A stretch of 32,000 nucleotides of DNA from Alkanindiges illinoisensis DSM 15370 (GCF_000619845.1 NZ_JHUX01000003.1:610064-642063), one strand, 5' to 3'; numbered from the stretch's first letter, positions 103 through 30,966 are shown. Made by a program: numbers and translations. Notes: a model not told the origin generated them from the letters alone.

Positions 103-159
103 ATGCCTGATGCAATTGGAACCAGCCTCATTTAGCGTTTTTTGGCTATGTCATTCTGC
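103..159 (+). promoter_or_regulatory. Copy A of the recurrent TGGAACC element (candidate late promoter; downstream half divergent)
   Basis: ATGCCTGA (103-110), TGGAACC (117-123) and CCTCATTT (126-133) nearly match copy B at 3477-3506. The downstream box at the N24 position is poor (atgtcattctgc). Confidence 0.4.
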
Positions 160-202
160 ATTCATTGAGTTAAAGCCAACATCGGCAAAAGGTGAATGTA
201 AA

Positions 203-1975
203 ATGACCGTTTTAAGTGCAGAAATCGAAAAGGCGTATAAAGAGCAGCAGGATCAAATTGCTCAGTGCGCGAATTATTACTATGGTGGCTTTAATGCAAC
301 TGAAATTGCTCAGTTTGACAGTATTGCCATTGCCCCTGAATCACGTCCAGACCTGGTAAAAAGCCTGTTTGATTCGATTGGTGAAGAAGGTCAGGCTAAT
401 ATTGATAATGCAGTGCGCTGGGGTGTTGAACAATATCAAGCGCGTAATGGCGGCCAATTGCCTCATCCGTCAGTCATTGCCAGTGCGTTAGGTGCAGGCC
501 TGCAAGCAAGCACAATTAACCCTGAAAACTTAAGCAAAGCGATTGCTGGTTTCGATAGTATCAGTAACCTGCAATATGAGCAGGCCAGTATCGTGCCAGC
601 ATTGACCGTAGCGACCATTGCAAACGTCATTGCCTATGCATTGCCTATTTTTGCGCTGATTCCCAACAATAATCAGTCAGTTAAAGTGCCATTGGTGGCC
701 ATGCGCTTTATTACTGATACGGCGTTTGGTGCAATGGGTGCAGGTGAATATCTGGACGGCGAAAATGCCGCAAAACCCTATGCTGAAGGCCGCTTCCGCT
801 TTGCAATGGCTAAAGGCGCTGGTAATACTTACAGCGTAGTTGCCCATACCTGCTATGACGACTTTAAAGCCAAAACTCCAGACACCGCTACGCCGTTGCT
901 GCCATTCTGGTCAGGTCTGGTATCTGTAAAAATCAATGGCATGGAAGTAGGTCATACCCGTGATGACCGCCTGCTGTCTGTTGATAAAGGCCAGATTAGC
1001 CTGATTCCAAACCAGAAGGGCGTAAAAGTTGGTAACACAGTTTACAAACTCACTGGCAGCACTATCAATCTGGATACCAGCTCTATTAGTGTGACACTTG
1101 ATGGGGCACTGCCTGCTGGTGCTTCTATCGAAGTGGCCTTGGTTGCCAATTTTGAAGCCCGTGACGCTAACAAGAAATTCAAGCTCAATCCGGTTGGTGT
1201 GAGCGTTGAAGCGGAATATGACTCACTGGTGGCTGCGCCATTTGCCATGCGTGTTAATGCGTCATACAGCACACAAAGCCAGCTGGCCAATGAATTAAAC
1301 CTGGGCTTTGTGGGTGCTGCATTATCAATTATGCAAGGTAAGTTCTTTTTGGAACAAACCATTCGATTGCTCAAAGAAGTGAAAGAACGCGCTGTTTTAA
1401 ATGGTCGTGGCTACTTTGATATGTCGCGTGGTGTAACTGGTAATTTGTCTGCCGTTGCCAATACCACCGGTGATTTGTTTGCCGAAGTGCTCAAAGTCAT
1501 TAAGAAAGGTAAGCGTCGTATCCGCCGTGCTTCAGGTGGCGCAACTACCAGCTTTGACCTGTACGTGGGCGACAACGGTGAAATCTTCTTCACTACGCTG
1601 TCTGCTGATAAGTTCACACCGACTGGTGTCAGCTCAACGTATGGCGAAATTGTGCGTATCGGTACGCTGGCTGATGGCACCGATGTTTATCACACGCCTA
1701 ATGCGCAGGGTGTTATTGAAGAGTCTGACGACAATAAGACCTTTGAAATGCTGCTGATTGGTAAAGGGAATGAGCCAGTGCGCAACCCATTGGTTGGTCA
1801 TATCCCTAACCCGCCTGTGGTACGTGAAGCGTTTGCCGATACCCGTGAGTTGGTGATGGATATTCACGGCAAAATGGCTGCGGAATTGAACCCGCTGGAA
1901 CGCTACGCTGACCAGTGTGCGGTGCTACAAGTGGTTAATGCACCAGCCATTCCATTTGACCCACCAGCCAAGTAA
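203..1975 (+). CDS. Major capsid protein (gp23-like / HK97-fold) with ~120-aa N-terminal propeptide
   Basis: ATG at 203 is preceded by AAAGGTGA. The protein is 590 aa. Segments such as 'AMRVNASYSTQSQLANELNLGFVGAALSIMQGKFFLEQTIRLLKEV' and 'FEMLLIGKGNEPVRNPLVGHIPNPP' follow the pattern I know from gp23-type capsid proteins (R.l.A.ys.e..qdl....g.d.e..l...l..ei..ei; lliG.kG......g...P). The gene is flanked by strong terminators, as expected for a highly expressed gene. The ORF-track start at 71 is rejected. Confidence 0.75.
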   Translation: MTVLSAEIEKAYKEQQDQIAQCANYYYGGFNATEIAQFDSIAIAPESRPDLVKSLFDSIGEEGQANIDNAVRWGVEQYQARNGGQLPHPSVIASALGAGLQASTINPENLSKAIAGFDSISNLQYEQASIVPALTVATIANVIAYALPIFALIPNNNQSVKVPLVAMRFITDTAFGAMGAGEYLDGENAAKPYAEGRFRFAMAKGAGNTYSVVAHTCYDDFKAKTPDTATPLLPFWSGLVSVKINGMEVGHTRDDRLLSVDKGQISLIPNQKGVKVGNTVYKLTGSTINLDTSSISVTLDGALPAGASIEVALVANFEARDANKKFKLNPVGVSVEAEYDSLVAAPFAMRVNASYSTQSQLANELNLGFVGAALSIMQGKFFLEQTIRLLKEVKERAVLNGRGYFDMSRGVTGNLSAVANTTGDLFAEVLKVIKKGKRRIRRASGGATTSFDLYVGDNGEIFFTTLSADKFTPTGVSSTYGEIVRIGTLADGTDVYHTPNAQGVIEESDDNKTFEMLLIGKGNEPVRNPLVGHIPNPPVVREAFADTRELVMDIHGKMAAELNPLERYADQCAVLQVVNAPAIPFDPPAK

Positions 1976-1983
1976 GGGCAGTT

Positions 1984-2011
1984 AAAAAGGCGCGTTGATC
2001 GCGCCTTTTTT
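1984..2011 (+). terminator. Rho-independent terminator
   Basis: aaaaaGGCGCG-ttgat-CGCGCCtttttt: perfect 6-bp GC stem 1989-1994/2000-2005 and T-run 2006-2011. Confidence 0.75.
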
Positions 2012-2045
2012 CCCATTCAATATTCATAAAGTCAATGAGGGTATC

Positions 2046-2588
2046 ATGACAACTGAACCAAAAACTAAGCGGCAGCCCCGCACCAAAACAGCTGCGTCAA
2101 CAGCTGAACAACAGTCAGCACCATCAACCCCTGATACTGAGCAGGATAAGGTAAATCAAACGCCAGCACAGCCCAATGCCAATCCTGAGCAGCCAGCGGC
2201 AATACAGAACCAGTCAGAAGGCGCTGACAATGGCCAACAGGACAAAGCACCAGCTGATGATCCATTAACAGATGCTGAAATACAGCCAGCTGATAACAAA
2301 GGCGACGACGCATCAGCCGCTGATAAAGAGCAAGCAAGCCCGGCACCTGCGCCAGTAACTGAACCAGTTGCAGTAGCACCTGTAAAGCCAGTACATGCCT
2401 TTGAGGTGACGAATAACAGTGACCAGCGTGTATTTGAGCCTGTCACCCGTACCACCATTGCACCTGTTGAAACCAAAACCATTGAATGTATCAATGCCAG
2501 CTTTAAACAGCGTGCCTTAAGCAATTTAAAGCAGTTTCAAGCCTTAGGCCGTAATTTGGAGATTAAAGAAGATGCCAGCAGTACCTGA
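2046..2588 (+). CDS. Hypothetical head-associated protein: P/A/Q/E-rich disordered N-terminal half plus a small C-terminal domain
   Basis: ATG at 2046 is preceded by GAGGG. About 120 aa are low complexity (PAQPNANPEQPAA..., PAPAPVTEPVAVAPVKP). The ~60-aa C-terminal domain is related to the N-terminus of the next ORF. Confidence 0.6.
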   Translation: MTTEPKTKRQPRTKTAASTAEQQSAPSTPDTEQDKVNQTPAQPNANPEQPAAIQNQSEGADNGQQDKAPADDPLTDAEIQPADNKGDDASAADKEQASPAPAPVTEPVAVAPVKPVHAFEVTNNSDQRVFEPVTRTTIAPVETKTIECINASFKQRALSNLKQFQALGRNLEIKEDASST

Positions 2589-3426
2589 TAAATACTTTGA
2601 CGGAACAAACCCAATCCTCACCATTGTTGGTGATGAGCCTACAGAGCGAGATGTCAGCATGACAAACAATGCATCAATCGTAAAAACGGAACTATTAACC
2701 AATACTCAGCTGCCGCCCGGCCAAACAGTGCTTGTGCGGGTTAAAGGTGATATGGCATTCGACCAGATCATTTCAAATCTTGAGCAAATTAATGCCTTGG
2801 AAGGCTTTGCAGTTATTGGCGTAACCAGTGTGCCGGTAGAAGAAGAAAGCAATGACGATCCATTTACCTTTGTCAATGCTCAGTTTGGCGGTGAAAACAT
2901 ACAATATACGGGTGGAACGATAGCATTTGATTATTTCAATGGTCTGCCAGCCTTTGCAATCACCACACCAGCTGCACTCAATAAATACTACACCTTTGGT
3001 CAGCCCAATTATGATATCGGTGGCGTTAATGTATTTTCAGAAGTCCTTCTGATCATTTCACCAAATAGTAACGCGCGTGATGCCTATAGTAACCGCATGG
3101 CCGGTAATGGTGGCTTTGCCGTAGACCAAACCCCGGCTAACGGTGCCAATACAGGCGTTTCAATTTCAAAAGCTGGTGCACTTAATCTCTTTACAAAAAC
3201 AGGCACTGATCTTCGTGTAACGGCACAAGTGGTTAATGATGCCGTGAACTGGTCAATTTACACTCCTGATGGTGGCATTACGGATGATTACAGTGACGCA
3301 CAGCCAGGAATCCAGAATCAGCCTTTATACTGCCATGTCATTGCGATTTTGCATCCAGAATATAGTCAGGTTGATTTGACACAAATCCGTGTACCGCTTG
3401 CTTTGGAAGGCATGGAATTAAGTTAA
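2572..3426 (+). CDS. Hypothetical virion protein (possible decoration or head-fibre protein)
   Basis: Long ORF overlapping the previous stop by 17 nt. An alternative start is ATG 2659 (MTNNAS...). The function is not recognisable; placement after the capsid gene is the only hint. Confidence 0.55.
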   Translation: MPAVPDKYFDGTNPILTIVGDEPTERDVSMTNNASIVKTELLTNTQLPPGQTVLVRVKGDMAFDQIISNLEQINALEGFAVIGVTSVPVEEESNDDPFTFVNAQFGGENIQYTGGTIAFDYFNGLPAFAITTPAALNKYYTFGQPNYDIGGVNVFSEVLLIISPNSNARDAYSNRMAGNGGFAVDQTPANGANTGVSISKAGALNLFTKTGTDLRVTAQVVNDAVNWSIYTPDGGITDDYSDAQPGIQNQPLYCHVIAILHPEYSQVDLTQIRVPLALEGMELS

Positions 3427-3448
3427 ACCAAGAATCCAGAAAGAATCT

Positions 3449-3475
3449 AAAAAGCAGCCAAAAGGCTGCTTTTTT
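3449..3475 (+). terminator. Rho-independent terminator
   Basis: aaaaAGCAGCC-aaaa-GGCTGCTttttt: 7-bp stem 3453-3459/3464-3470 and T-run 3471-3475. Confidence 0.75.
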
Positions 3476-3476
3476 C

Positions 3477-3532
3477 ATGCCTGAACAACTGGAACCTACC
3501 TCATTTTACCCAAAACCATGCTGACACAATAA
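3477..3532 (+). promoter_or_regulatory. Copy B of the TGGAACC-N24-CACAATAA element (candidate late promoter)
   Basis: ATGCCTGA 3477-3484, TGGAACC 3490-3496, exactly 24 nt, then CTGACACAATAA 3521-3532. The ATG at 3562 lies 29 nt further on. Confidence 0.5.
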
Positions 3533-3561
3533 CCATAAGCAGTAGGCCATAAGGCAAGGCA

Positions 3562-3849
3562 ATGAACACAACAAAGATTTTAGGTGAAGCGGTCGGTGTG
3601 CAGTGGCAGGGTGTTACTGACAATACCGAAACCAATACAGTGGCCGGTTTAACGCAAGCCATTGTGATTGGCCGGTTTAAACGGGGTGAAGTTGGACGTC
3701 CCATGGTGATTACCCCAAACAATATTCGTGGTCAGCTGGGGCATGAACCTACCAATCCTTATTACATCGCTGTGCAGGCCTGTTTAGATGCTGGTGTGCC
3801 CAGTGTGCAGGTGTTACGTGTAGCTGATTCAATTCAACCTGAGGAATAA
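3562..3849 (+). CDS. Tail sheath protein, N-terminal segment (95 aa, ends at in-frame TAA)
   Basis: AAGG lies upstream of the ATG. 'AVGVQWQGV...QAIVIGRFKRGEVGRPMVITPNNIRGQLG...YYIAVQACLDAGVPSVQVLRV' follows the N-terminal pattern of contractile sheath proteins (GV.v.......s.viG.....g....P.li.s......fG....y.a..a...ga..v.vvrV). It is in the same reading frame as 3856-5154. Confidence 0.65.
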   Translation: MNTTKILGEAVGVQWQGVTDNTETNTVAGLTQAIVIGRFKRGEVGRPMVITPNNIRGQLGHEPTNPYYIAVQACLDAGVPSVQVLRVADSIQPEE

Positions 3850-3855
3850 AAAATC

Positions 3856-5154
3856 ATGACGCAAATTAGACTTTCAGGTGCAGGCGTTTTATCACTAGGC
3901 GCTACAGTTAGCCCAGCGCTGGTCATTAGTGCAACGACAAAAAGCTATCTGGGTGATGATGCATCCCTTGATATCGCTTTTTTTGCGAAAGTGGCTAATC
4001 CGCTATCAGGTGATGATATCACCGTACGTTTAACCTGGTTTGACTCAACTACAGACGATCAAATTTTTAAGATTCAGGGCACATTAAGCAATGATGAGGA
4101 TGATTTGTCATCCATTCAGGCAGTCGCTGATGCTGCGGAAATCTTTGGAGAATTTAGTCTAATTCTTGGTTCTGGCCTGATTACTGCGGTTAAAAATTGC
4201 GTGGCTTTTAATGCATACAATGGCTTAAACCGTAACAGTTTTGCATTGCCGCTTCCAAGTGATCAGCCACCACCATTTGATGCCGATCAGGTCTATGACA
4301 TTTTAACGGCTGAAGGTGTTCGACCAGCCTATCTGGTGCTGCCGACCCTGGATGATCTGGAGCTTTACAACACGGTTTATCGTGCAGCTGACAAGCTCAA
4401 CATTCCCATGGACTGTGAGATTGACCCAACCATTACACCAGAGCAGGCTGCTGACTTGGCGCTTAATCTGGATGCACAGGATCAGCGCGTACAACTAATT
4501 TGGTCGCCTAATATCTGCCGTCCGCGTGATGCCGTATCCCTACGGGGCCGCAAAGTACCAGCCTACGCCATTGGCGCATACCTTGGTATGAAGTTACTTC
4601 GCAATGCACGTACAACAGCAGAGGGTATCCCCAAAATTGGCGACCCGGTAGCCGGTTACGATTTTCCATTCACCATGAAAGGCCTAGAAATGCGGCCTGA
4701 CGTGGTATTTAACGAGCAAACACTGGAAATGCTGGCTAAAGCTAAAGTGAATACTGTACGCCGCATGAGTTTTGGCGGGGGTGTGCGCTTTGTTCTCAGT
4801 GATGGCTTAACCCAGCGTCAAAGCAAGAACAGTGCGCTGCGCCTGGTCAATGCCACAGAAATTGCCTGCTATACCAGCAATATAGCAACCGACATTCTAA
4901 ATCGTCACATGCTTAGACGCATGAGCAGCTACTTAACTGATGCTAGCCGCGAAATTGAAGCCTTTTTGAAAAAATGTGCGGCACCTACGGTTGGCCTGTT
5001 GCAGCCTGCCGCAGATTTGGGCGGTGCGCCGTATGTATTTAGTTTAACGCCCGATGCTGACTATCCGTTTGAACGTGTTCGGCTGTATATGGCGCGTGGT
5101 ATAGACGGTATGACCCGTGCTGCAATTTTTGATAAAGACATTCTTAGTAAGTAG
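3856..5154 (+). CDS. Tail sheath protein, main body (432 aa)
   Basis: 'VPAYAIGAYLGMKLL...IGDPVAGYDF...NEQTLEMLAKAKVNTVRRMSFGGGVRFVLSDGLT' resembles the conserved sheath core (vPas..vaG......p.N..i.g......d...l....iN.ir.....g.r.wg.rT). The ATG lies 6 nt after the TAA of 3562-3849, and GAGGA sits 10 nt upstream. Confidence 0.7.
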   Translation: MTQIRLSGAGVLSLGATVSPALVISATTKSYLGDDASLDIAFFAKVANPLSGDDITVRLTWFDSTTDDQIFKIQGTLSNDEDDLSSIQAVADAAEIFGEFSLILGSGLITAVKNCVAFNAYNGLNRNSFALPLPSDQPPPFDADQVYDILTAEGVRPAYLVLPTLDDLELYNTVYRAADKLNIPMDCEIDPTITPEQAADLALNLDAQDQRVQLIWSPNICRPRDAVSLRGRKVPAYAIGAYLGMKLLRNARTTAEGIPKIGDPVAGYDFPFTMKGLEMRPDVVFNEQTLEMLAKAKVNTVRRMSFGGGVRFVLSDGLTQRQSKNSALRLVNATEIACYTSNIATDILNRHMLRRMSSYLTDASREIEAFLKKCAAPTVGLLQPAADLGGAPYVFSLTPDADYPFERVRLYMARGIDGMTRAAIFDKDILSK

Positions 5155-5169
5155 TTGGAGTAAGAAATA

Positions 5170-5961
5170 ATGATTTTTGGACATAAACGTAAAACCCCGG
5201 TGCCAGCGCTGATTGTGCCTGGCTTTGATTCTGTAGCCGTGGCGATTAGCCAGGCTGCAACCCTGACTGCCAGTGAACAACGTGAGCAGCAATCATTTAT
5301 TGAGCATGTGCGTGAACAGGCGCTGCATATCGTGTCGCATATGGCTGATACGATTATTGAAGGCAAACTAGAAGAAGGCGAGCTGCCCACTGACCTGCTG
5401 GACGGCCTGATGATCGAGGCACTGGATGGACTGGACGACGACGATAGCGACATTGAAGGCGCATTGGCCGGGTCCATTCAAGATGCATTGTCGTCTTTCG
5501 ACGTGGATGATTCTGTCATCAATGAAATGTTCGGTGATAATGTCACTGCTGCCGATGCTGCGATTGAAGCTGCTGCTGCAACCATTATCGCGAATATGCC
5601 CGATGAAGGTGAACCACTGGATGAATTTGCCCGTGAATTCATCTTCGGTGAGCCAGATGACATTGAGGAGGGGTTTGACTCTATCAGTGGTAAGCGCTTG
5701 ACTAAGGCACAGACTAAAGCCAAAGTCGGGGCGTTCTCGCATAAAAAAGTGGGTGGCCGTAAGGTTGCTTATAAAGGGGTACTGGCCATTCGTAAAGGCA
5801 TCAAAACCATTGTGAACAAGCGACTGCCTGGGCAGAAAATCCGTCAATCTGCTGACCAGAAACAGGCGATTAAAAAAGCCCGCCTGAAAGCACACACGGC
5901 TAATTCCATTCGCCAGCGTGTGAAATCGTTTAAGAAAGGTCGCAAGATGGGTTTGTATTAA
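5170..5961 (+). CDS. Acidic/basic internal-protein-like virion protein (leader - acidic region - basic tail)
   Basis: GGAG lies upstream of the ATG. The protein has a ~20-aa leader ending in GFDSV, a strongly acidic middle (LDGLDDDDSDIEG, EPDDIEEG), a second GFDSI, and then ~90 aa with 29 K/R and one acidic residue (my count). Confidence 0.6.
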   Translation: MIFGHKRKTPVPALIVPGFDSVAVAISQAATLTASEQREQQSFIEHVREQALHIVSHMADTIIEGKLEEGELPTDLLDGLMIEALDGLDDDDSDIEGALAGSIQDALSSFDVDDSVINEMFGDNVTAADAAIEAAAATIIANMPDEGEPLDEFAREFIFGEPDDIEEGFDSISGKRLTKAQTKAKVGAFSHKKVGGRKVAYKGVLAIRKGIKTIVNKRLPGQKIRQSADQKQAIKKARLKAHTANSIRQRVKSFKKGRKMGLY

Positions 5962-5982
5962 ACTACAGCGAATGATTGCGTT

Positions 5983-6008
5983 AAAAGGCTGCTTAGGCGG
6001 CCTTTTTT
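5983..6008. terminator. Bidirectional terminator between convergent genes
   Basis: aaaaGGCTGC-ttag-GCGGCCtttttt: 6-bp stem with one G:U pair, an A-run on one side and a T-run on the other. It sits between the stop of 5170-5961 (+) and the stop of 6020-6202 (-). Confidence 0.7.
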
Positions 6009-6019
6009 AATTACTAGAT

Positions 6020-6202
6020 TTATTTATCTGCATAGCATTTGGTCAATACATCGTGGTAGTGCTGATTCGCTTTGTCATAAGCGGTTTTAGCTTTTTCAAT
6101 GGTTGCCTTGTCACCACTGGATAGCGACTTATCATAATTTGCCCAAGCCTTTATTCTTTTACCATGGGCCTTGCTGTATTCCTTTTGCATATCAGTCATC
6201 AT
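6020..6202 (-). CDS. Small Lys-rich helical protein, function unknown (moron, gene 2 of 2)
   Basis: The ORF track starts at TTG 6211. I prefer ATG at 6202, which is preceded by GGAG (taattGGAGatcATGATG). The region is AT-rich (~30-43% G+C in my 60-nt hand counts, against ~50% in the flanks). Confidence 0.55.
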   Translation of the reverse strand: MMTDMQKEYSKAHGKRIKAWANYDKSLSSGDKATIEKAKTAYDKANQHYHDVLTKCYADK

Positions 6203-6214
6203 GATCTCCAATTA

Positions 6215-6490
6215 CTAAATTTCTAAATATAACTTAGCCTGATTGTAAGCGGTATCCAGTTCACTCAAGTAATCCTGCAAATAATCTGAGCCTATCAAAT
6301 TTTTCTGATGAAAGTCGTGTGCTTCACGCTTTAAGCCTTCATAGTCCATTTCCAAAAATTCAACATAATTTCTAATATATGTCATTACTTTCCAGTCCAG
6401 ATGCTTTTCATCCAAAAACAGGTTTTTACCCTTTTCTAAAATTGCTGTCGCTTTTTCCTGAGTCATGGGTTCCTGAATAATATTTTTCAC
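6215..6490 (-). CDS. Small acidic helical protein, function unknown (moron, gene 1 of 2)
   Basis: GTG start at 6490, or alternatively ATG at 6466 preceded by AGGAA. It lies on the strand opposite all neighbours, is AT-rich, and is followed 3 nt later by the second small ORF. Confidence 0.55.
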   Translation of the reverse strand: MKNIIQEPMTQEKATAILEKGKNLFLDEKHLDWKVMTYIRNYVEFLEMDYEGLKREAHDFHQKNLIGSDYLQDYLSELDTAYNQAKLYLEI

Positions 6491-6544
6491 TTTGGAAAAT
6501 CCCTAGGGTATGTGTTTTGAATAATAAAGTCCTTTATTGTCATT

Positions 6545-6587
6545 TGGAACCATGCAGGTCAGGGTATTTTCTAAACAAGCAAAATAG
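6545..6587 (+). promoter_or_regulatory. Copy D of the TGGAACC-N24-box element (candidate late promoter)
   Basis: TGGAACC 6545-6551, 24 nt, then CAAGCAAAATAG 6576-6587 followed by CCATAAG as in copy B. The ATG at 6615 lies 27 nt further on. Confidence 0.45.
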
Positions 6588-6614
6588 CCATAAGTAAACT
6601 TAGAGTATTGTGAC

Positions 6615-7148: not shown

Positions 7149-7158
7149 GGGAGCCATC

Positions 7159-7518
7159 ATGGAAAATTCAATATTTATTGATATTTTTTTGATTGTACTT
7201 TCCCTGTGTTATGCAGGTTTTAGCTATGGCTGGAACAACAAGAACCGGGACACCATTTTAAAACTTAAAAATGATGTGTCCTATTCAAATTTGGTGATTC
7301 TGGCACGTATCCCTTTTCTCATCATTATGGCCCTGGTGCTGGTCTGGTTGGGATTTATGTGCTCGCTACTGTATGAGTGCCTGCTGTACTGGAAGGCTGC
7401 CGGTACGGGCTGTTACCTGTTGCTGGTGCTATTTGCTGGCGTCACTACCTGGCAAATTGGGGTTGCGCAGTACTGCAAGCTCATCCTGATCCATGCCAAA
7501 AGCCGTGGACTGACCTAA
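7159..7518 (+). CDS. Small integral membrane protein (3-4 predicted TM helices), function unknown
   Basis: GGGAG lies upstream of the ATG. Hydrophobic stretches: IFIDIFLIVLSLCYAGF, LVILARIPFLIIMALVLVWLGFMCSLLY, GCYLLLVLFAGVTTW. A TAATG overlap joins it to the next gene. Confidence 0.6.
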   Translation: MENSIFIDIFLIVLSLCYAGFSYGWNNKNRDTILKLKNDVSYSNLVILARIPFLIIMALVLVWLGFMCSLLYECLLYWKAAGTGCYLLLVLFAGVTTWQIGVAQYCKLILIHAKSRGLT

Positions 7519-9887: not shown

Positions 9888-9896
9888 GCGTTCTTA

Positions 9897-10315: not shown

Positions 10316-10358
10316 TGGAACTACCCACCTTTTGCAAATTTTAAATAACGCACACTAG
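10316..10358 (+). promoter_or_regulatory. Copy E of the element (variant TGGAACT)
   Basis: TGGAACT 10316-10322, 24 nt, then AACGCACACTAG 10347-10358. The ATG at 10386 lies 27 nt further on. Confidence 0.35.
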
Positions 10359-10385
10359 ACGCATCAAAGCATTTCGAGAACAACA

Positions 10386-15262: not shown

Positions 15263-15775
15263 ATGTTTGGTTTTCCCCGCGCTAAAATCCTGAGCTATAA
15301 CCAGAAGGCCCGGACAGCCCAGATTCATATTTATGGTATGACAGATGGGGCCAGTGAAGGTTTAGAAGCCACATTTGCTTATCCGGTTGGTGATGACGAC
15401 CTTGATACCGAACGCGAAATATTGGTCGGTGCAGACGTGTATATCTTCTTTCAAAATGGTGATGAAGGCTTACCAGTGGTCTGGAGCTACAGCAGTCACG
15501 GTGAGGGAGCCGTTGAAGATGTGCGCCGGATCCGGCAGAAAAATATTGAAATTCTTGGGCGTGAAAATGTACTGGTTGAAGCCCCTATAGTAACAATTAA
15601 GGCCCATCTCGTGCTTGAGGGTGATTTTACTCACACAGGCGACCAGACGACAACGGGCAAGATCACAGCCACAGAAGATGTGATAGGTGGCGAAGTATCT
15701 CTTAAATCCCATCCTCATAGTGGAGTCAGACGTGGGTCTGAACAAACTGACCCACCCATGCCTACTGGAACCTAG
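15263..15775 (+). CDS. Baseplate central spike, gpV / Mu gp45-like
   Basis: AGGA lies upstream. 'VGADVYIFFQNGDEGLPVVWS' matches the gpV OB-fold motif (G..V.v.f..GD...P.V.g). The C-terminal 'SLKSHPHSGVRRGSEQTDPP' matches the H.H.g..gg.T..P ending. Confidence 0.6.
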   Translation: MFGFPRAKILSYNQKARTAQIHIYGMTDGASEGLEATFAYPVGDDDLDTEREILVGADVYIFFQNGDEGLPVVWSYSSHGEGAVEDVRRIRQKNIEILGRENVLVEAPIVTIKAHLVLEGDFTHTGDQTTTGKITATEDVIGGEVSLKSHPHSGVRRGSEQTDPPMPTGT

Positions 15776-15808
15776 CCCATTTCCATAAAATCCATTCAGC
15801 CAAAATAA
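15766..15808 (+). promoter_or_regulatory. Copy F of the TGGAACC-N24-box element
   Basis: TGGAACC 15766-15772 (the last codons of the spike gene), 24 nt, then CAGCCAAAATAA 15797-15808 (9/12 identical to copies B and C). ATG 15839 lies 30 nt further on. Confidence 0.5.
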
Positions 15809-15838
15809 GCCTTAAATTGGTGAATTTTGGCAACAAGA

Positions 15839-18040: not shown

Positions 18041-18083
18041 TGGAACCTGCCAGAAACCCATCATTTTTAGCCTGACACAATAA
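18041..18083 (+). promoter_or_regulatory. Copy C of the TGGAACC-N24-CACAATAA element
   Basis: TGGAACC 18041-18047 begins 2 nt after the upstream stop. After 24 nt comes CTGACACAATAA 18072-18083, identical to the 12-mer of copy B. ATG 18114 lies 30 nt further on. Confidence 0.5.
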
Positions 18084-18112
18084 GCCCAGTATTAAAAATA
18101 GTGGGCTTTTTT
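18082..18112 (+). terminator. Terminator hairpin overlapping the end of promoter-like copy C
   Basis: AAGCCCA(gta ttaaaaa tag)TGGGCTTtttt: 7-bp outer stem plus an AT inner stem with one mismatch, T-run 18107-18112, directly abutting ATG 18114. Confidence 0.55.
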
Positions 18113-18113
18113 C

Positions 18114-23400: not shown

Positions 23401-24005
23401 CCGGCATTGTGTATGTCATCCGCCAGCTTGATCCAGAAAGCCTAGATTTTGATGAACACAAGATCATTATTGGCGCGTCTACATTAGAAGAAGCCCAGCA
23501 AATTTATTTGTCTAATTATGAATCGGGCTGGCAGGGGATGGGCAGTATTGAAACGCTATCCATTGAAGATTTTAGGAACAGGCTGGGTAAGACCTGGACG
23601 CAGTTTGATTCGATTGGCCAGCACGTTGAGCCAATCACTGTTCTGAATCAGCTTATTGGCATCTTGCAGGCCAAAAAAATCACTGACCAGCAGCAGTTAA
23701 TGGAACTGCGCGAGGAAATTCGCACCAATGAGCAGACCGCCCGTTATTTGATGGGTGGCCGTAAGGGATTGTGGGGCCGCACAACCAATGCGGACAATAA
23801 ACGCAGTGCTGAATTGTCAAATTTACGCCTGAAATACCAGCTGGCACTGAATCATTTTATTGCCCTGTATTCCATTGACAAGCGGGAAGCCCGTACCTTT
23901 AATTTACGCCATGGCGTCAATTCTTTTGATTCCATCGAAAATGACCAGATACACCCAGTATTTCATGCGATTTATGGGCATGGAAACCACTGGAACAGCG
24001 CATAA
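20421..24005 (+). CDS. Polyvalent protein: unknown N-terminal domain + ParB/DdrB-like domain + helical region + pyrophosphatase-signature domain
   Basis: 1,194 aa. ParB-superfamily motifs are 'ELQPRDRSR' and 'VESGNGRTMAIQLAY' (GxxR box). 'DGDELDV' at 23352-23372 fits the family-I PPase signature D-[SGDN]-D-[PE]-[LIVMF]-D-[LIVMGAC] as I recall it. Three FDS[IV] motifs separate the segments. Confidence 0.7.
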   Translation: MVSKTDKTALNQIDVVANPIAAIDAMIDALKHQQHENYEFLTGEPVASIQSGQIKPDEKGHYIKAAVNWFREWMDKNSHGQEFENVQLGTIIIAPSGIKSAMSHKPHPIDVQALPALPLIIEKAVVLSRTMDDMGKPLENIVVAAPIEIDAKKYYMVVRLRRHTEDKNDRPRFYTQAVTIAEDIKKGHIPSDQVTGQNKLLTQNGGRVRLLNVLYSALSVNNPATSIVTGRTNTVKTPKGTKLDTVFALVEADNVIASHDSTGGTNPKFPQELQPRDRSREASQTWVKKTAANLDPDSLGKTSRADTGAPIVGDDLIVESGNGRTMAIQLAYARGTAEEYRAWLVDEAEYFGFKPEQVEAFKQPVLVRIRKTEIDRAAFAVEANQDDKLSLSATERAKADARRIDDNMAMLFNPSEDGDLLAASNQKFIQAFLQSIGDTEAAQYIGTDGKPTQALVLRIKAAVFSKAYKDDRLLEMVADQTKPDLKNMLNALSVAAPKFIEAQAISRLQTEDLSSQIVDGIESATDQKVIDAIIAAANVVMTAKNDNHDVTEFVKQQGLFGDLPDGVAELAVFLSKNASSAKKMSLLFKAMASFLEKQAIDQSNNSLFGDPEPLSMREVIQHAVGVLEQEYGDKANLSMFDDLGFLEPKLFDQIFKSYARTGEWTPTKYLEQMDALRRIFFANGWGRERRTNGFMIKPCGERKVRLIKYADDDKFFVSIVDLDEKLITEIVGCDNKAIPEIIAEINKYLNEDQQLSLEKSGFDSVDGNDQIAMVPKVDASNTWMNGQIIPWSENPETDFAHSMKLPSSGQLGDKVCFHVWANESKESRVRIDAFIADIKFKTSKVWYGLAMRIADTRFATLIYLPSGTFDILTSHESVDGYDALLTMEEICRHNCLRTDIDKQAHEAATSPYNDLPEPTEAQKISGDYVKGKLSIAGVDIAIENPAGSTRSGVDASGKAWQTTMKHHYGYIENTMGADGDELDVFVKTGLNEYTGIVYVIRQLDPESLDFDEHKIIIGASTLEEAQQIYLSNYESGWQGMGSIETLSIEDFRNRLGKTWTQFDSIGQHVEPITVLNQLIGILQAKKITDQQQLMELREEIRTNEQTARYLMGGRKGLWGRTTNADNKRSAELSNLRLKYQLALNHFIALYSIDKREARTFNLRHGVNSFDSIENDQIHPVFHAIYGHGNHWNSA
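21141..21640 (+). other. ParB-superfamily (DdrB-type) domain within 20421-24005
   Basis: 'FALVEADNVIASHD...FPQELQPRDRSREASQ...GAPIVGDDLIVESGNGRTMAIQLAY...PVLVRIRK...RAAFAVEANQDDKLSLSATERAKADA'. The boundaries are approximate. Confidence 0.55.
23163..23570 (+). other. Inorganic-pyrophosphatase-like domain within 20421-24005
   Basis: 'LPEPTEAQKISGDYVKGKLSIAGVDIAIENPAGSTRSG...HYGYIENTMGADGDELDVFV'. The sequence block resembles one that I recall in phage/ICE polyvalent proteins. The boundaries are approximate. Confidence 0.5.
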
Positions 24006-24067
24006 AAGCACCAATTACCAAGCCTTAACATAGGTCAATCTAAAAAAATACCTATGTTGAGGTCTGC

Positions 24068-27000: not shown

Positions 27001-30000
27001 TGATTTAAGTAACCGCATCAAGAAAATCAACAAGTATGAAAGCAAGTTGCCCTATTTTGAGGATATGGGCGTTGATTCACTGGTATTTGATGAAGCCCAG
27101 CTATTCAAGAATGGCAAGGCTGGCGGCGGCCAATATGACCGTATCAAAGGCCTGTCATTGCTGGCCGAGAGTGCTTTATCGGCGCGTGCAATCAGCGCGG
27201 CCATTAAATCCTGGTATATCCGTGGCCGTAACGGTGAATTGAATGATGGCGTAGTCTTGCTGACTGCAACGCCATTTACTAACTCGCCGGTTGAGATTCT
27301 AACCATGCTGTCACTGGCAGTCGGTGATAAGGAAGCCATGCGCGAACTGGCGGGTACTTCCATTGCCAGCGTTGATGATTTCTTAAGTACCTTTGCCAAT
27401 ATTGACCAGATTGAGCAGGAAAATATTGTCGGTGATCTGGTATCAGTTGATACTTTTACGGGCTTTAAAAACGTGCAGTTATTGAAGGATGGCATTCACA
27501 AGATTGCTAATATCCAGACCGCCCGGGAGCGTGGCCTTAAAATTCCTGATGAAGAAAATCATACCGTGGTCATTGACCTGGTGGATGACGACAAGGCAAC
27601 CCTAAACCAGATGAAAGGGTTTTATGCACTGGCCAAGGAAATGATTAACGGCGGTGGTGTGATTGCCGATAAAGATACCTTTGAGGCCTATGAAGCCTAT
27701 AAGGAAATGCTTGGTGAAACGGATGAGCTACTGGCTCACCCGTTCAACCTGATTGCCCGCATGTCTGATGTGATCATGGCCGGTAGTGAAATGGGCCTCA
27801 TGCGTATTGTACCCGTTGATTTTGCCCCTGATCAGCTGGAAGCCGCGCGCAAATTGGCTGACCAGTTTAATGCCAAGAAAATCAGCATTAAGACAACCCG
27901 CCGTTTTCCGGGCGTTGATAGCGAACTAATGACAGTCAAAATGATACAGGACAATCAAGGCGAGCTAATGCCACAGTTTACTATAGGCTGCCGTGTTGAT
28001 CTGGATGATCATAATTCGCGGTTAATCCTAAATGTGGATGATGCTGGCGTCGTCGCGCAGCTGATGGAAATGATTGATAAGGCAGGCCTACAGGTCCAGC
28101 CCAAGCTATCAGCTAAAGTTTCTGCCATGGTTGAAAACTATAAGGTTGAGCAGAGTACGCCAAAGCATCAGGGCCATGCCAAACAGCTTATTTTCTGCGA
28201 CAACCTGGCGATGCAGCATGTAATCAAGCGGGCATTGGTTGCTTACTGTGGGGTGAAATCCAGCCAGATTGCCATTATCAATGCGCAAACTCTACCAGAT
28301 GGCAGCAAGGGCAGTCCTGATACAGAGCACATGCAGGAAGTGCAGGACAAGTTTGCCAGCAATGAGTTTACAACCGTCATTGCCAATAAAAAGGCTGAAA
28401 CCGGTATTGATTTGCAGATTGGTACACAGGCCATCCACCACTTAACAACGGGCTGGACACCAGACAGCTTACAGCAGCGTAATGGCCGTGGCGTACGTCA
28501 GGGCAATAAGCAGTCCAGCGTGGCAATTTACCATTACAATGCCAATGGCACCTTTGATGAGTATAAGCAGCGCCTGATTGCTGGCAAGGCTGACTGGATT
28601 GACCAGTTGATGCAAAAGGATTCTGTTGTATCTGGAACCCTGAATGTGAGCCAGGAACTCAGTAAACAGGACTATGAGGACCTGATTAATGCTGATAGCC
28701 CTGAACAAATTGCTGCACTATTGCAGGCAAAATCTATTCGGGAACAGGCCGAGCGTGCTGCACTGGTTGCCTCCAGAACCCGCTTGCTATATGACAACAT
28801 GATCAAGGCCAAGAAACGCCCTAAACCCAGCATTGAAGGGCAAGTACGTCAGATTATGGAGGTCGATGCCAAACGGCTAGGGGAACTGATCAAGAAGCGC
28901 GACAAGGCGGCCAAGCCTGAGGTTATTCAGCGTTACACCGACCAGATCAACCAGATTGCCCAGCGCTATGATGGCTGGTTCGATGGTGAGCTGACCAGTG
29001 ATATGGTGATTAAGGGCATTGAGCGAAAACGGCAATATAACCGTAGCCCAAGTTTTAGTGAATATGATATTTACCGTGAAATGCGGACTGGAAGCCATGA
29101 AATGTCACGCTGGATCCAGACCAATGCCGACACCCTGACCAATGATGTATTTAACCGTGCCCGTAGTGTGGTGAGCACAGCAGATAACATGATTCGTGCC
29201 ACTGAAGAATCATTCTTGAATTATCAGGATAATGGTTTTAGTGAGGCTGATAAACAGGCCATTTTAACCGGAGAGGCCGTTTTAGATGATTTGGGCGTGC
29301 TTTGGTATGCAGGCGAGTACGTTAAGGCCATTAAAGAAAATGGCAAAACCGTTTATGGCTATGTGAAGATTGCTGAACTTAGTGATTATGGCTTTAAATT
29401 TGGTTTTATCGGTAAGGAAATCGGTAGAACTGATACCTGCCAGAAACTAAGCCCGGATGATAAGGCCGCTGCCATTGAATATATGGTGGCCGAGGATATG
29501 GCCGAGTGTAACACCAAAGAAATTTTTGATATCAGTGTTGCTAAGCCATTTTACGCCAGTGTTTTTCCAGAAATTTACACCATTTTGGCGGAACGTCTGG
29601 CCGGTGCGCTTCAAGAATGGAATGAGCGGACTACCCAGTATTTTGCCCGCAATCTGGTGCACCGTGCGACTAAGCGGCGCTATTGGGCTGAAGAGTTTTT
29701 ACCAGAGCTAAGGTATGATAATCCCGATATTGTTAAATCTTATAACCTGGTATTTGATATTGAGGCATTTGAAGTTAATCCGCTCAATCGCAGGCCTATG
29801 GCGGTAATCCGTAATAAGAACCTAAGGCTTTATCAAAACATCCCAATAACCCATGCCTCAGATTCTGAATTTTTTGAAAATGAACTGCTGCCTTATCTGG
29901 AAGGTGAGGCTATAGAAGTAAAAATGGATGTAGACACAGCATTTAATTTATTGAAAAAACTGCTAGGAACATCACGCCTGTTTGATATGGCATTAACCCG

Positions 30001-30484: not shown

Positions 30485-30942
30485 GCCGCATTACCTACCT
30501 AATCCCTGATCGTGCGGCACTGGCTGAGGTGACGGCTGGCATTAAAGCCAGCCTGACCGATAAGGGAATTGAACCAGCCAATATGCCTAAGGTCATTACT
30601 GATACATTTTTTCGTAATGCGGCGCGGCTAAGTGCCCGTGATATTGATTTCTGGCTAGGCTTTGGCGGGTATTTGCCAGCGGTTGAATGGGTTATTGCCC
30701 AGCAAAGCGGGGAAGGCGAAGAAGAGTTTTATGCCCGCACCCAATATCCTAAAAATGTGGTTGAGGCCTACAGTGTACCTGAGGATGATTTAGCAACCCT
30801 TGCAGCTGCTGATCTGTATATGCAGCTTCACCGGGCTACCACACCAGTTGCAACAACAGTCTGGCCATTAAATGAAGAGGAAGGCCAATATATTGACCTT
30901 GCCCAGTTTGAGGCGCGGCTCAATGGAACCGTGCGCCTTTAG
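30481..30942 (+). CDS. Hypothetical protein translationally coupled to the MTase-helicase gene
   Basis: 153 aa, with an ATGA stop/start overlap at 30481-30484. I see no recognisable motif. Confidence 0.6.
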   Translation: MSRITYLIPDRAALAEVTAGIKASLTDKGIEPANMPKVITDTFFRNAARLSARDIDFWLGFGGYLPAVEWVIAQQSGEGEEEFYARTQYPKNVVEAYSVPEDDLATLAAADLYMQLHRATTPVATTVWPLNEEEGQYIDLAQFEARLNGTVRL

Positions 30943-30966
30943 CACAATGTGAGCGAGTAATAATAA
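30924..30966 (+). promoter_or_regulatory. Copy H of the TGGAACC-N24-box element
   Basis: TGGAACC 30924-30930 (within the last codons of 30481-30942), 24 nt, then GAGTAATAATAA 30955-30966. ATG 30993 lies 26 nt further on. Confidence 0.4.

What the first reader, a model, noticed from the sequence alone, without database searches (positions are those of the whole stretch)
117..30966. Recurrent bipartite DNA element TGGAACC-N24-C.G.CA(C/A)AATA(A/G) with fixed distance to start codons: candidate phage-specific promoter
Copies, given as heptamer / 12-mer box / following start codon:
- B: 3490-3496 / CTGACACAATAA 3521-3532 / ATG 3562.
- C: 18041-18047 / CTGACACAATAA 18072-18083 / ATG 18114.
- F: 15766-15772 / CAGCCAAAATAA 15797-15808 / ATG 15839.
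- D: 6545-6551 / CAAGCAAAATAG 6576-6587 / ATG 6615.
- H: 30924-30930 / GAGTAATAATAA 30955-30966 / ATG 30993.
- E: TGGAACT 10316-10322 / AACGCACACTAG 10347-10358 / ATG 10386.
- A: 117-123, which shares ATGCCTGA-N5/6-TGGAACC-N2-CCTCATTT with B but has a poor box.

The spacer is exactly 24 nt in every copy, and the box-to-ATG distance is 26-30 nt in six copies. I found at least eight TGGAACC heptamers on the + strand, against ~2 expected for any given heptamer in 32 kb. Six sit at gene boundaries. The two intragenic ones (21755, 28633) lack the box.

Each copy stands at the start of a + strand gene block, following a terminator or a divergent gene. The geometry fits neither sigma-70 (17-nt spacer) nor sigma-54 (GG-N10-GC). 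It suggests either a phage-encoded sigma factor or activator, or an AATA-type late -10 element combined with an upstream activator half-site.
Basis: seen in the sequence. Interest (0 to 1): 0.7.

Follow-up and report, generated by a model that had tools for sequence, protein, structure and literature searches.

The report
Late-gene promoters of a P1-like phage
The repeated TGGAACC…CAAAATA element is very probably the late-gene promoter of a P1-like temperate phage of the Acinetobacter family of bacteria. It combines a weak host-type -10 box with a fixed upstream site for a still unidentified phage activator. It is conserved across many related prophages but is unlike the known P1 late promoter.

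Summary
All seven listed copies are at the stated coordinates, all on the + strand, each 26-43 nt upstream of a start codon. A weight matrix trained only on a different phage, Acinetobacter phage ABMM1, returns exactly these seven as the top window hits, and only with a 24-nt spacer.

The window is the late/structural region of a P1-like myovirus. The element sits where P1 has its Lpa-dependent late promoters (portal, tube, dar, lysis operons), but the sequence differs and no Lpa homologue was found.

Across 67-68 non-redundant sites from relatives the consensus is TGGAACn-N28-cAAAATAgcc.tA. The spacer sequence is free and its length is 24 (sometimes 23). The invariant A and T match -11 and -7 of a sigma-70 -10 hexamer. 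A conserved pyrimidine-A lies where +1 is expected. TGGAAC then lies at about -47 to -42.

Best reading: activator-dependent, -35-less late promoters. No sigma-like protein was found in the complete ABMM1 genome. The best activator candidate is an XRE-type HTH protein (phrog_7396) encoded next to RusA. This candidate is inferred, not shown.

Many copies overlap a terminator/SD-sequestering hairpin that cannot form in RNA started at the promoter.

Verdict: new variant of a known kind, with no transcript data.

The parts
117..164 (+). Copy A. TGGAACC 117-123, box 148-159 (-10-like CATTCT 152-157), predicted +1 A164. Drives the head-protein gene (ATG 203, phrog_1014). A terminator hairpin plus T-run lies just upstream (about 78-102).
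   Evidence: 15.9 bits. The ABMM1 orthologue at 6622 has the same weak box, CAGACT.
3490..3537 (+). Copy B. TGGAACC 3490-3496, box 3521-3532 (-10-like CACAAT 3525-3530), predicted +1 A3537. Drives ATG 3562 (95-aa sheath-N-like gene) and the sheath gene at 3856. A terminator lies upstream at 3449-3474 plus T-run.
   Evidence: 15.9 bits. ABMM1 orthologue at 9501.
6545..6592 (+). Copy D. TGGAACC 6545-6551, box 6576-6587 (CAAAAT 6580-6585), predicted +1 A6592. Drives ATG 6615 (Hdf/DarA_N-like gene) and the baseplate genes. It is divergent from the minus-strand ORFs at 6020-6490.
   Evidence: (16.2 bits, the best hit).
10316..10363 (+). Copy E. TGGAACT 10316-10322, box 10347-10358 (CACACT 10351-10356), predicted +1 A10363. 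Drives ATG 10386 (tail tube operon). It is divergent from the minus-strand ORF at 9897-10280.
   Evidence: 13.0 bits. Orthologous tube promoters are found in ABMM1 (14538), L010, L013, L015, L017 and L025. P1 has LPsit at the syntenic place.
15766..15814 (+). Copy F. TGGAACC 15766-15772 overlaps the last codons of the upstream gene. Box 15797-15808 (CAAAAT 15801-15806), predicted +1 about 15813-15814. Drives ATG 15839 (portal).
   Evidence: 15.8 bits. The site is conserved upstream of the portal gene in Alkanindiges L008, MAG L009, ABMM1 and 80 IMG/VR loci, with diverged spacers. P1 has LPpro here.
18041..18113 (+). Copy C. TGGAACC 18041-18047, box 18072-18083 (CACAAT 18076-18081), predicted +1 A18088. 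A hairpin at 18084-18106 plus T-run overlaps the start site, and its 3' arm carries the SD-like GGG. Drives ATG 18114 (DarA-like gene, then ddrB-like).
   Evidence: 15.9 bits. The hairpin is -12.8 kcal/mol in read-through RNA and 0.0 if the RNA starts 6 nt after the box. P1 has LPdar for this operon.
23991..24067 (+). TGGAACA 23991-23997, box GCCTTAACATAG 24022-24033 (TAACAT 24026-24031), predicted +1 A24038. The inverted repeat AACATAGGT/ACCTATGTT spans the -10 and the leader. Drives ATG 24068 (DarB-like methylase-helicase).
   Evidence: (11.0 bits, eighth-best + strand hit). TGGAACA is the usual form in several related lineages. The score is within the null range, so this copy is tentative.
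30924..30992 (+). Copy H. TGGAACC 30924-30930 lies inside the end of the upstream gene. Box 30955-30966 (AATAAT 30959-30964), predicted +1 G30971. Hairpin 30967-30986 plus T-run. Drives ATG 30993.
   Evidence: 15.5 bits. The hairpin is -12.4 kcal/mol in full RNA and -0.2 in truncated RNA. ABMM1 orthologue at 38491.

Best explanation
These are the late promoters of a P1-like temperate myovirus of Moraxellaceae. The nearest genome match is an Alkanindiges prophage, and the nearest isolated phage is Acinetobacter phage ABMM1.

Anatomy of each copy:
- A -10-like hexamer, c-A-n-A-A-T, at box positions 5-10. It keeps the two bases that sigma-70 flips out (A at -11, T at -7) but usually lacks T at -12.
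- No -35 hexamer.
- A start site at a conserved pyrimidine-A, 7 nt downstream of the hexamer.
- An asymmetric word, (T)GGAAC(C/T/A), fixed at about -47 to -42.

Proposed mechanism (inferred, not shown): host RNA polymerase with its primary sigma cannot use these -35-less, weak -10 promoters alone. A phage-encoded DNA-binding activator made from the early operon binds TGGAAC one helical turn upstream of the -35 position and recruits or stabilises polymerase. This is how class II activators, Mu Mor/C and P1 Lpa work. About ten to fourteen separate late operons are then switched on together.

The most likely activator is the roughly 205-240 aa XRE-type HTH protein of phrog_7396, encoded directly after RusA. 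I put this at about 40%.

Second, inferred layer: each late operon is insulated by an intrinsic terminator. It lies either just upstream of TGGAAC or immediately after the -10. In the latter case the G+C-rich foot of the 5' arm (CCTC/CCCT) lies upstream of +1 and the 3' arm is the Shine-Dalgarno sequence (GAGG/AGGG). Read-through RNA would therefore terminate with its SD sequestered, while RNA started at the promoter would lack the 5' arm and be translated.
For: (1) The window is P1-like late DNA: sheath, baseplate, tube, portal, DarA/DdrB/DarB-like genes.

(2) The sites are statistically and independently recovered.

(3) Three further copies occur in the same phage outside the window, each upstream of a gene: tail fibre and a 100-aa gene (L179:3674 and 9488) and holin (L003:11757; 2 hits against 0.04 expected).

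(4) The complete ABMM1 genome has about 14 copies. All are on the + strand, all lie upstream of genes, and several are at orthologous places: head, sheath, tube, portal, darA-like, holin.

(5) In 80 IMG/VR relatives TGGAACY is 422 on the + strand against 123 on the - strand. The distance to A.AAT peaks sharply at 36 (178 pairs). Orthologous sites keep N24 (some N23) with unrelated spacers.

(6) In 67-68 non-redundant sites the consensus is TGGAACn-N28-cAAAATAgcc.tA. Position 17 of the box frame is A in 54 of 67. Position 16 is a pyrimidine in 60 of 67. The start codon lies 25-33 nt after the box in 56 of 67.

(7) P1's annotated Lpa promoters occupy the syntenic positions LPpro, LPdar, LPsit and LPlyz. 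PMC10695390 reports 11 late promoters sharing an Lpa site.

(8) No Lpa homologue is found in ABMM1, the window or L003. No sigma domain is found in ABMM1 proteins.

(9) Evidence for the activator candidate:
- The RusA-HTH gene order is conserved in ABMM1, four other Acinetobacter lineages and Xanthomonas phage Rb1.
- The gene lies in the early operon, upstream of the first motif copy in L093.
- Among 50,697 phage records it is found only in ABMM1 and Rb1, not in the P1 group.
- A satellite-like island (L092) carries a paralogue 82% identical to the co-resident prophage's HTH, plus one TGGAACA-N24-box site in front of its next gene.

(10) Hairpins: 28 of 67 sites have a hairpin after the box that is lost if the RNA starts at the predicted +1. 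Another 16 of 67 have an upstream terminator. None has both.
Against: - There is no transcript or 5'-end evidence of any kind. The timing ('late') is inferred from gene content and P1 synteny.
- The -10 assignment rests on sequence logic only. C rather than T at -12 is unusual.
- TGGAAC shows no dyad symmetry, which is odd for a dimeric HTH protein.
- The activator is not identified. The window phage's own early region could not be retrieved, so I do not know that it encodes a phrog_7396 protein.
- Co-occurrence of the HTH gene and the motif is confounded by shared ancestry.
- ABMM1 has a motif copy in front of its own rusA-HTH operon (59516) after a terminator, which complicates a simple early-to-late cascade.
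- The hairpin thresholds are ad hoc, and the sites are phylogenetically related.
Confidence: 0.8

Rival explanations
1. A phage-encoded alternative sigma factor, or a two-protein sigma such as T4 gp55/gp33 or an ECF-like factor, reads both words directly. TGGAAC would act as a -35-like element and CAAAATA as an extended -10.
For: GGAAC is the classic ECF -35 core (my own knowledge). The extended 8-mer CAAAATAG recalls T4's -10-only late promoter TATAAATA. A divergent sigma could escape Pfam (searches are negative, but they are sequence-based).
Against: The 28-29 bp between TGGAAC and the hexamer is far beyond the 16-18 bp a single sigma spans. There is no conservation 16-17 nt after GGAAC in 68 sites. 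No Sigma70_r2/r4 or other sigma domain occurs among the ABMM1 proteins scanned, and no gp55-like hit was found. The hexamer keeps exactly the sigma-70-critical A(-11) and T(-7).
Confidence: 0.08
2. The box is a constitutive or weak host promoter. TGGAAC is an unrelated protein site, for example an operator for a repressor, a nucleoid or insulator protein site, or a replication or packaging signal that happens to lie upstream.
For: Function of TGGAAC as an activator site is not shown. ABMM1 site 59516 has a second TGGAACT just after the box, which could be operator-like.
Against: An exact helical register (N24, rarely N23) to the hexamer is kept over roughly 50% protein divergence while the spacer sequence drifts. 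This argues for one composite element. No -35 is present to make the box a self-sufficient promoter. The site is strictly co-oriented with the genes. Twelve or more dispersed copies are not expected for pac or ori sites.
Confidence: 0.06
3. The conserved words act in RNA: a leader, processing site, or Q- or put-like antitermination signal working with the downstream hairpin and U-run.
For: 28 of 67 sites have a hairpin and U-run between the box and the start codon. Lambdoid late control uses promoter-proximal elements plus terminators (my own knowledge).
Against: RNAalifold finds no consensus structure, and MFE is not below shuffles (-3.8 against -4.1) for 28 diverse sites. There is no Rfam hit. 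Many copies lie directly after a terminator, so they would not be transcribed from upstream. More than half of the sites have no hairpin at all. A terminator only 20 nt from the start codon with the SD in its 3' arm leaves no room for a paused-complex mechanism like Q.
Confidence: 0.04
4. The pattern is a chance or copy-paste artefact: a few intergenic cassettes duplicated within one genome, without function.
For: A and B share extra flanking identity, ATGCCTGA...TGGAACC..CCTCATTT. B and C have identical boxes.
Against: The sites are recovered out of sample by a matrix from another phage. They are conserved at orthologous positions in dozens of diverged genomes with unrelated spacers.
Confidence: 0.02

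Closest known systems
Bacteriophage P1 late promoters (LP) activated by Lpa (gp10), with host SspA
   Same: Both belong to the same virus type with the same gene order. P1 has about 11 dispersed late promoters in front of the portal, dar, tube/sit, lysis and tail-fibre operons. Each has a -10 hexamer, no -35 and a fixed upstream activator word, and several are preceded by terminators.
   Different: The P1 word is the 9-bp palindrome-like AAGTNACTT, only 4 bp upstream of the -10 (the '-22 region'). Here the word is the asymmetric TGGAAC, 28 bp upstream (about -45). No Lpa homologue was found. The candidate HTH family is unrelated to Lpa (hhalign probability 0.1). An SspA requirement is unknown.
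Phage Mu middle and late promoters activated by Mor and C
   Same: These are -10-only promoters with an activator site centred near -43.5, next to or overlapping the -35 position, read by host sigma-70 polymerase (my own knowledge). The geometry matches best: the centre here is -44.5, or -43.5 in N23 variants.
   Different: Mor/C sites are dyad-symmetric and bound by small dimeric proteins of a different family. Here the word is asymmetric, and the candidate protein is an XRE-HTH with a long helical C-terminal domain.
P2 Ogr / P4 delta late promoters and helper-satellite cross-activation
   Same: Multiple late operons are switched on by one small activator at -35-less promoters. A satellite carries its own copy of the activator and a responsive promoter. 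This compares with the L092 island, which has an HTH paralogue and one motif copy.
   Different: The Ogr site is TGT-N12-ACA centred at -55, and Ogr is a zinc-finger protein contacting the alpha subunit (my own knowledge). Neither the sequence nor the protein is related here.
T4 middle promoters (MotA box at -30 plus -10, with AsiA remodelling sigma-70)
   Same: The architecture is bipartite: a good or partial sigma-70 -10 plus a phage-specific upstream word replacing the -35.
   Different: The MotA box sits at -30, not -45. It needs two proteins, MotA and AsiA, for which no homologues were seen.
ECF sigma factor promoters (-35 GGAAC, about 16-17 bp, -10 CGTC/TCTRA)
   Same: They share the GGAAC core in the upstream word.
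   Different: The spacing is 28-29 bp, not 16-17. Nothing is conserved at the ECF -10 position. The downstream word is sigma-70-like. No ECF sigma is encoded in ABMM1.

Membership tests
P1 Lpa-dependent late promoter | 9-bp inverted-repeat word AAGTNACTT centred near -22, 4 bp upstream of the -10 | tested here: not met
   P1 LP sequences were extracted. No such word lies next to the hexamers in the window. The conserved word is TGGAAC, 28 bp upstream.
P1 Lpa-dependent late promoter | Cognate activator Lpa (phrog_1704) encoded by the phage | tested here: not met
   tblastn of P1 Lpa against ABMM1 (complete genome), the window and L003 gives nothing better than E = 2.3. The window phage's early region was not available.
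P1 Lpa-dependent late promoter | -10 hexamer without -35, placed in front of the late morphogenesis and lysis operons | tested here: met
   Hexamer c-A-n-A-A-T with invariant A and T, and no -35. The sites are syntenic with LPpro, LPdar, LPsit and LPlyz.
Sigma-70 activator-dependent (class II-like / Mor-C-like) promoter | Recognisable -10 with A(-11) and T(-7), and a start site 6-8 nt downstream at a purine | tested here: met
   A and T are near-invariant. Position +1 is A in 54 of 67 sites, and -1 is a pyrimidine in 60 of 67. This is sequence evidence only.
Sigma-70 activator-dependent (class II-like / Mor-C-like) promoter | Activator site at a fixed helical register around -41 to -45 | tested here: met
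   TGGAAC lies at -47 to -42. The spacer is 24 in most sites and 23 in some, never otherwise.
Sigma-70 activator-dependent (class II-like / Mor-C-like) promoter | Transcription depends on the activator and on host sigma-70 holoenzyme | not testable with these tools
   This needs in vitro transcription, reporter assays or 5'-end mapping.
Sigma-54 promoter | GG at -24 and GC at -12, spaced by 10 bp (TGGCAC-N5-TTGC) | tested here: not met
   No conserved GC or TTGC lies 5 nt after TGGAAC in the aligned sites.
ECF sigma promoter | -35 GGAAC followed after 16-17 bp by a conserved ECF -10, with a cognate ECF sigma gene | tested here: not met
   Information content is about 0 at spacer positions 12-24. 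No sigma domain is found in ABMM1 proteins.
T4-type late promoter (gp55) | A -10-only 8-mer TATAAATA is sufficient, no upstream element is needed, and gp55/gp33 are encoded | tested here: not met
   An upstream word at fixed distance is conserved. No gp55-like or other sigma-like protein was detected.

The most novel reading that the evidence does not exclude
A large, previously uncharacterised branch of P1-like phages has replaced the Lpa system by a different late switch. The branch includes very common A. baumannii prophages, Alkanindiges and other Moraxellaceae prophages, and, with a GGAAAAA variant, Xanthomonas and Burkholderiales phages such as Rb1.

The proposed switch has three parts:
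- A new family of XRE-HTH activators (phrog_7396) acts at an asymmetric TGGAAC site near -45.
- The promoters are fused to a start-site-overlapping terminator/anti-SD hairpin, so that only activator-initiated transcripts escape termination and expose their ribosome-binding site.
- Satellite-like islands carry their own copy of the activator and a responsive promoter to plug into the helper's late programme.
Probability: 0.35. Interest if true: 0.65.

Novelty: new variant of a known kind. Interest (0 to 1): 0.5.

Why it matters
ABMM1-type prophages are very common in Acinetobacter baumannii. One protein of the early-operon cluster (RusA, HTH, the following 278-aa gene) is recorded on at least 1000 contigs. 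The late-gene control of these prophages has not been described in the literature I could search.

A defined promoter consensus would give four things:
- A direct way to annotate late operons and gene starts in these prophages.
- A testable candidate for the late activator.
- An inducible, phage-specific expression signal for Acinetobacter.
- A second, independent solution to late activation within the P1-like lineage, useful for comparing how activators replace the -35 contact.

The promoter-overlapping terminator/SD hairpin, if real, would be a compact way of insulating operons and coupling translation to the correct start site.

Tried and rejected
- Near-identity DNA searches of the window against the phage and plasmid collections found nothing.
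- The generic sigma-70 promoter and terminator scan was uninformative. Full -35/-10 promoters are fewer than in shuffles, and its terminator rules missed the hairpins at C and H.
- Sigma-54, ECF and T4-late readings were rejected on spacing and lack of conservation.
- The RNA-element reading was rejected.
- Lpa homology was rejected.
- I looked for other ABMM1 regulators (Zn-finger-like gp63, gp65, the small gp66) as activator candidates. They have no informative family hits, and I have no evidence for or against them.
- Structure prediction of the HTH candidate gave only a generic XRE domain match: ImmR, the C.BclI and C.AhdI controller proteins, BldD. The C-terminal helical domain matched nothing. 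Mean pLDDT was 72 and pTM 0.36.
- I could not retrieve the window phage's own early/regulatory region. The genome-contig scan returned only two loci. Look-ups are restricted to window proteins. The last protein search was saturated by near-identical A. baumannii sequences.
- The profile search for the HTH family found 531 proteins, but none could be assigned to the window lineage.
- The Rb1 'GGAAAAA...CAnAAT' pattern was found by eye and regex in a 66% GC genome and was not tested statistically. Treat it as a lead.
Full report
OBSERVATION

TGGAACC occurs eight times in the window, always on the + strand. The expectation is 3.9 for both strands, and 3 of 100 shuffles reach 8. I printed every TGGAAC[CT] with its context. 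This confirmed the coordinates given for copies A-H, the exact 24-nt spacer, and the distances to the next ATG: 26-30 nt for six copies and 43 nt for copy A, whose real start is ATG 203. The two intragenic heptamers (21755, 28633) have no box.

The pattern TGGAACY-N29-A.AMT gives 6 hits against 0.10 expected. That pattern was written from the sites themselves, so I built an independent test. A weight matrix was made only from 12 sites of a different phage, ABMM1, covering the heptamer and the 12-mer and ignoring the spacer.
- Six hits score >=15 bits. The null mean is 0.20 and the maximum is 3 in 500 first-order Markov sequences.
- Sliding the spacer from 18 to 30 leaves hits only at 24.
- The eighth-best + strand hit is a plausible extra copy: TGGAACA 23991, box 24022-24033, in front of the DarB-like gene at 24068.

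WHAT THE WINDOW IS

No near-identical DNA exists in the phage or plasmid collections. The proteins identify the late region of a P1-like myovirus:
- a head protein of phrog_1014;
- sheath, baseplate, tube and portal;
- an Hdf/DarA_N-like protein and a DarA-like protein;
- a DdrB-like polyvalent protein;
- a 2138-aa DarB-like methylase-helicase.

The closest isolated phage is Acinetobacter phage vB_AbaM_ABMM1, at about 60% amino-acid identity. Next come Xanthomonas phage Rb1 (about 30%) and the P1 group (about 25%). The closest genome hit is a prophage fragment of Alkanindiges hydrocarboniclasticus, a member of the Moraxellaceae, with 93% portal identity. Two Logan contigs from run SRR3313971 carry the same phage and extend the window by about 10 kb on each side.

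COMPARATIVE EVIDENCE

The same phage has three more copies outside the window. They lie in front of the tail-fibre gene and a 100-aa gene (L179:3674 and 9488) and in front of the holin gene (L003:11757).

The complete ABMM1 genome has about 14 copies. All are on the + strand, all lie upstream of genes, and they include the orthologues of A, B, E, F, C, H and the holin site. Copy A's 'poor box' (CATTCT at box positions 5-10) matches CAGACT in ABMM1. The A at position 6 and the T at position 10 are therefore kept even there.

The portal promoter is retained in Alkanindiges (TGGAACC-N24-CCGCCAAAATAG) and in a metagenome-assembled (MAG) relative with 50% portal identity (AGGAACC-N24-CCCGCAAAATAG). 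The spacers are completely different.

In 80 IMG/VR loci around related portal genes:
- TGGAACY is 422 on the gene strand against 123 on the other strand;
- the distance from TGGAAC to A.AAT has one sharp peak at 36, which corresponds to N24, with 178 pairs;
- a minority of true sites sit at 35;
- the hits at 37 are one conserved coding sequence.

After removing redundancy (<80% identity), 67-68 sites give the consensus TGGAACn-N28-cAAAATAgcc.tA, with essentially no information in the spacer.

WHY IT IS A PROMOTER AND HOW IT IS PROBABLY READ

The conserved part of the box is c-A-n-A-A-T. This is a -10 hexamer that keeps A(-11), A(-9), A(-8) and T(-7) but usually has C instead of T at -12. Seven nucleotides after the T lies a conserved A (54 of 67 sites), preceded by a pyrimidine (60 of 67). 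This is the usual start-site context. The start codon follows 25-33 nt after the box in 56 of 67 sites.

With that register, TGGAAC lies at -47 to -42. There is no -35 hexamer. Only a weak T-rich patch appears around -33 to -30.

The positions match those of the annotated Lpa-dependent late promoters of P1:
- LPpro before the portal gene;
- LPsit before the tube operon;
- LPdar before the dar operon;
- LPlyz before the lysis genes.

The P1 element is AAGTNACTT-N4-TAnnAT, which is quite different. P1 is reported to have 11 such late promoters sharing an Lpa-binding repeat (PMC10695390).

Step by step, the status of each claim is:
- Shown by sequence: a composite, strand-specific, position-specific and evolutionarily constrained element with a -10-like half.
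- Inferred: it is a promoter, it is late, and it needs an activator bound at TGGAAC that compensates for the missing -35.

The geometry is closest to Mu Mor/C and to class II activators, whose sites are centred at about -42 to -44 (my own knowledge).

WHICH FACTOR?

No Lpa homologue exists in ABMM1, the window or L003. Pfam scans of the ABMM1 proteins I submitted, a subset that omitted the large structural and several annotated proteins, found no sigma domain, only several HTH proteins.

One of these, gp68 (228 aa, phrog_7396, XRE-type HTH plus a long helical C-terminal part), stands out for five reasons.
- Gene order. Its gene directly follows rusA at the end of the lambdoid-like early operon in ABMM1 and in four other Acinetobacter lineages. 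In those genomes it is followed by a conserved 278-290 aa gene whose N-terminus resembles the Rb1 small terminase. In Rb1 and a related metagenomic phage the order is rusA - HTH - small genes - TerS - TerL. This is the position lpa has relative to pacA in P1.
- Family membership. The Rb1 protein falls in the same PHROG and aligns over the HTH domain.
- Timing. In L093 the early operon containing the gene has no motif copy, and the first copy appears downstream, before the tail-tip lysozyme gene.
- Phyletic pattern. Among 50,697 phage records the family occurs only in ABMM1 and Rb1, not in P1-group phages.
- Satellite-like island. An island in Acinetobacter rathckeae encodes an integrase, a DUF927 primase and no structural genes. 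It carries a paralogue 82% identical to the HTH of the prophage in the same genome. One TGGAACA-N24-AAGAATAATAAG site lies in front of the next gene. This recalls P4 delta and P2 Ogr.

All of this is circumstantial. The AlphaFold model (pLDDT 72) matches solved structures only through the XRE domain, including the C.BclI and C.AhdI controller proteins. I could not obtain the window phage's early region. I put the identification at about 0.4.

Rb1 (66% GC) seems to use GGAAAAA(C/G) with CAnAAT at the same offset, in front of its protease, capsid, tube, DarA_N and baseplate operons. That would extend the architecture beyond Moraxellaceae, but I did not test it statistically.

TERMINATORS AND HAIRPINS

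Copies A and B lie just after intrinsic terminators.

Copies C and H, and many relatives, instead have a hairpin plus T-run that begins right after the box and ends just before the start codon. The free energy is -12.8 and -12.4 kcal/mol in read-through RNA. It falls to about 0 if the RNA begins at the predicted +1, because the G+C-rich foot of the 5' arm lies upstream of +1.

The 3' arm carries the only purine-rich SD-like sequence (GGG, AGGG, GAGG), and the T-run is the SD-to-ATG spacer.

Among 67 non-redundant sites, 28 have such a start-site-disrupted hairpin, 16 have a terminator immediately upstream, and none has both. The thresholds are ad hoc and the sites are related.

I infer that every late operon is insulated. 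In the overlapping arrangement, only promoter-initiated RNA escapes termination and exposes its ribosome-binding site. This inference is untested.

REJECTED READINGS

- Sigma-54: no GC element 10 bp after GG.
- ECF sigma: GGAAC is present, but nothing is conserved 16-17 bp downstream and no sigma gene was found.
- T4-type -10-only promoters: an upstream word is required and no gp55 homologue was found.
- RNA element: RNAalifold finds no consensus structure, the MFE equals that of shuffles, there is no Rfam or tRNA hit, and many copies lie behind terminators.
- Chance or recent duplication: excluded by the out-of-sample recovery and by orthologous conservation.

NOVELTY AND VERDICT

Full-text searches for the motif, for ABMM1 promoters and for late promoters of P1-like Acinetobacter prophages found no description.

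The kind of element is well known: activator-dependent, -35-less phage late promoters. This particular word, its -45 position, the absence of Lpa and the candidate activator family are not. I class it as a new variant of a known kind.

Confidence is about 0.8 for 'activator-dependent late promoter' and lower for the activator's identity and for the hairpin mechanism. Interest is moderate (0.5). It would be higher if the activator family, the promoter-embedded terminator and the satellite link are borne out.

Noticed in passing
L092 (Acinetobacter rathckeae GCA_015627165.1, VTDP01000006.1:93925-114599), about 138-11300: This satellite-like integrative island encodes an integrase, a DUF927 primase, a SocA_Panacea protein and a RelA_SpoT protein, and has no structural genes. 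It carries an HTH paralogue 82% identical to that of the P1-like prophage in the same genome (L096), plus one TGGAACA-N24 late-type promoter before a 194-aa coiled-coil gene. It may be a helper-exploiting satellite.
   Followed up: partly
L179:2243-3657 (about 6-7.5 kb upstream of the window start, same phage): A Thoeris-like gene pair (ThsB_TIR and ThsA_Macro) is inserted between the large terminase and the tail-fibre gene. The motif copy at L179:3674 lies directly after it. The terminase itself has a Hom_end_hint (intein/homing endonuclease) hit.
   Followed up: no
window 3562-3849 and 12384-12818: Two small genes encode paralogous roughly 90-aa domains (phrog_5283) that match the N-terminus of sheath-related proteins. 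One sits directly before the sheath gene and one before the 495-aa gene at 12818. ABMM1 has similar small 'tail sheath' fragments.
   Followed up: no
window 6020-6490 (- strand) and 9897-10280 (- strand): Small minus-strand ORFs of 63, 91 and 127 aa interrupt the otherwise uniformly + strand late region. They have no family hits. They lie exactly where copies D and E restart + strand transcription. In ABMM1 the corresponding gaps hold antirepressor and toxin-antitoxin genes.
   Followed up: partly
window 75-123 and 3449-3496: A and B share an almost identical cassette of terminator, ATGCCTGA, N5/6, TGGAACC, N2 and CCTCATTT. F has ATGCCT-N2-TGGAACC-N3-CCCATTT. The extra flanking identity is not conserved in relatives and may reflect recombination between promoter cassettes.
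   Followed up: partly
ABMM1 28420-28450 (L001 about 17630-17660) and homologous IMG/VR loci: At the portal promoter of the Acinetobacter lineages, an inverted GGTTCCA lies 8 bp upstream of TGGAACC, facing a short divergent gene (gp25). This could be a divergent pair of sites or a true dyad at this one promoter. It is absent from the window's copy F.
   Followed up: no
Xanthomonas phage Rb1 (PQ569993) 690, 19021, 35213, 44078, 46554, 65025: In this 66% GC genome, the A-rich word GGAAAAA(C/G) lies 36 nt upstream of CAnAAT hexamers in front of late operons, all on the + strand. It may be the lineage-specific equivalent of TGGAAC. One copy lies directly before the HTH gene itself.
   Followed up: partly
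ABMM1 59516-59570 (L006 about 8517-8570): The motif copy in front of the rusA-HTH operon is preceded by a strong terminator. A second TGGAACT and a 15-codon mini-ORF follow it immediately. This could mean autoregulation of the candidate activator operon.
   Followed up: no
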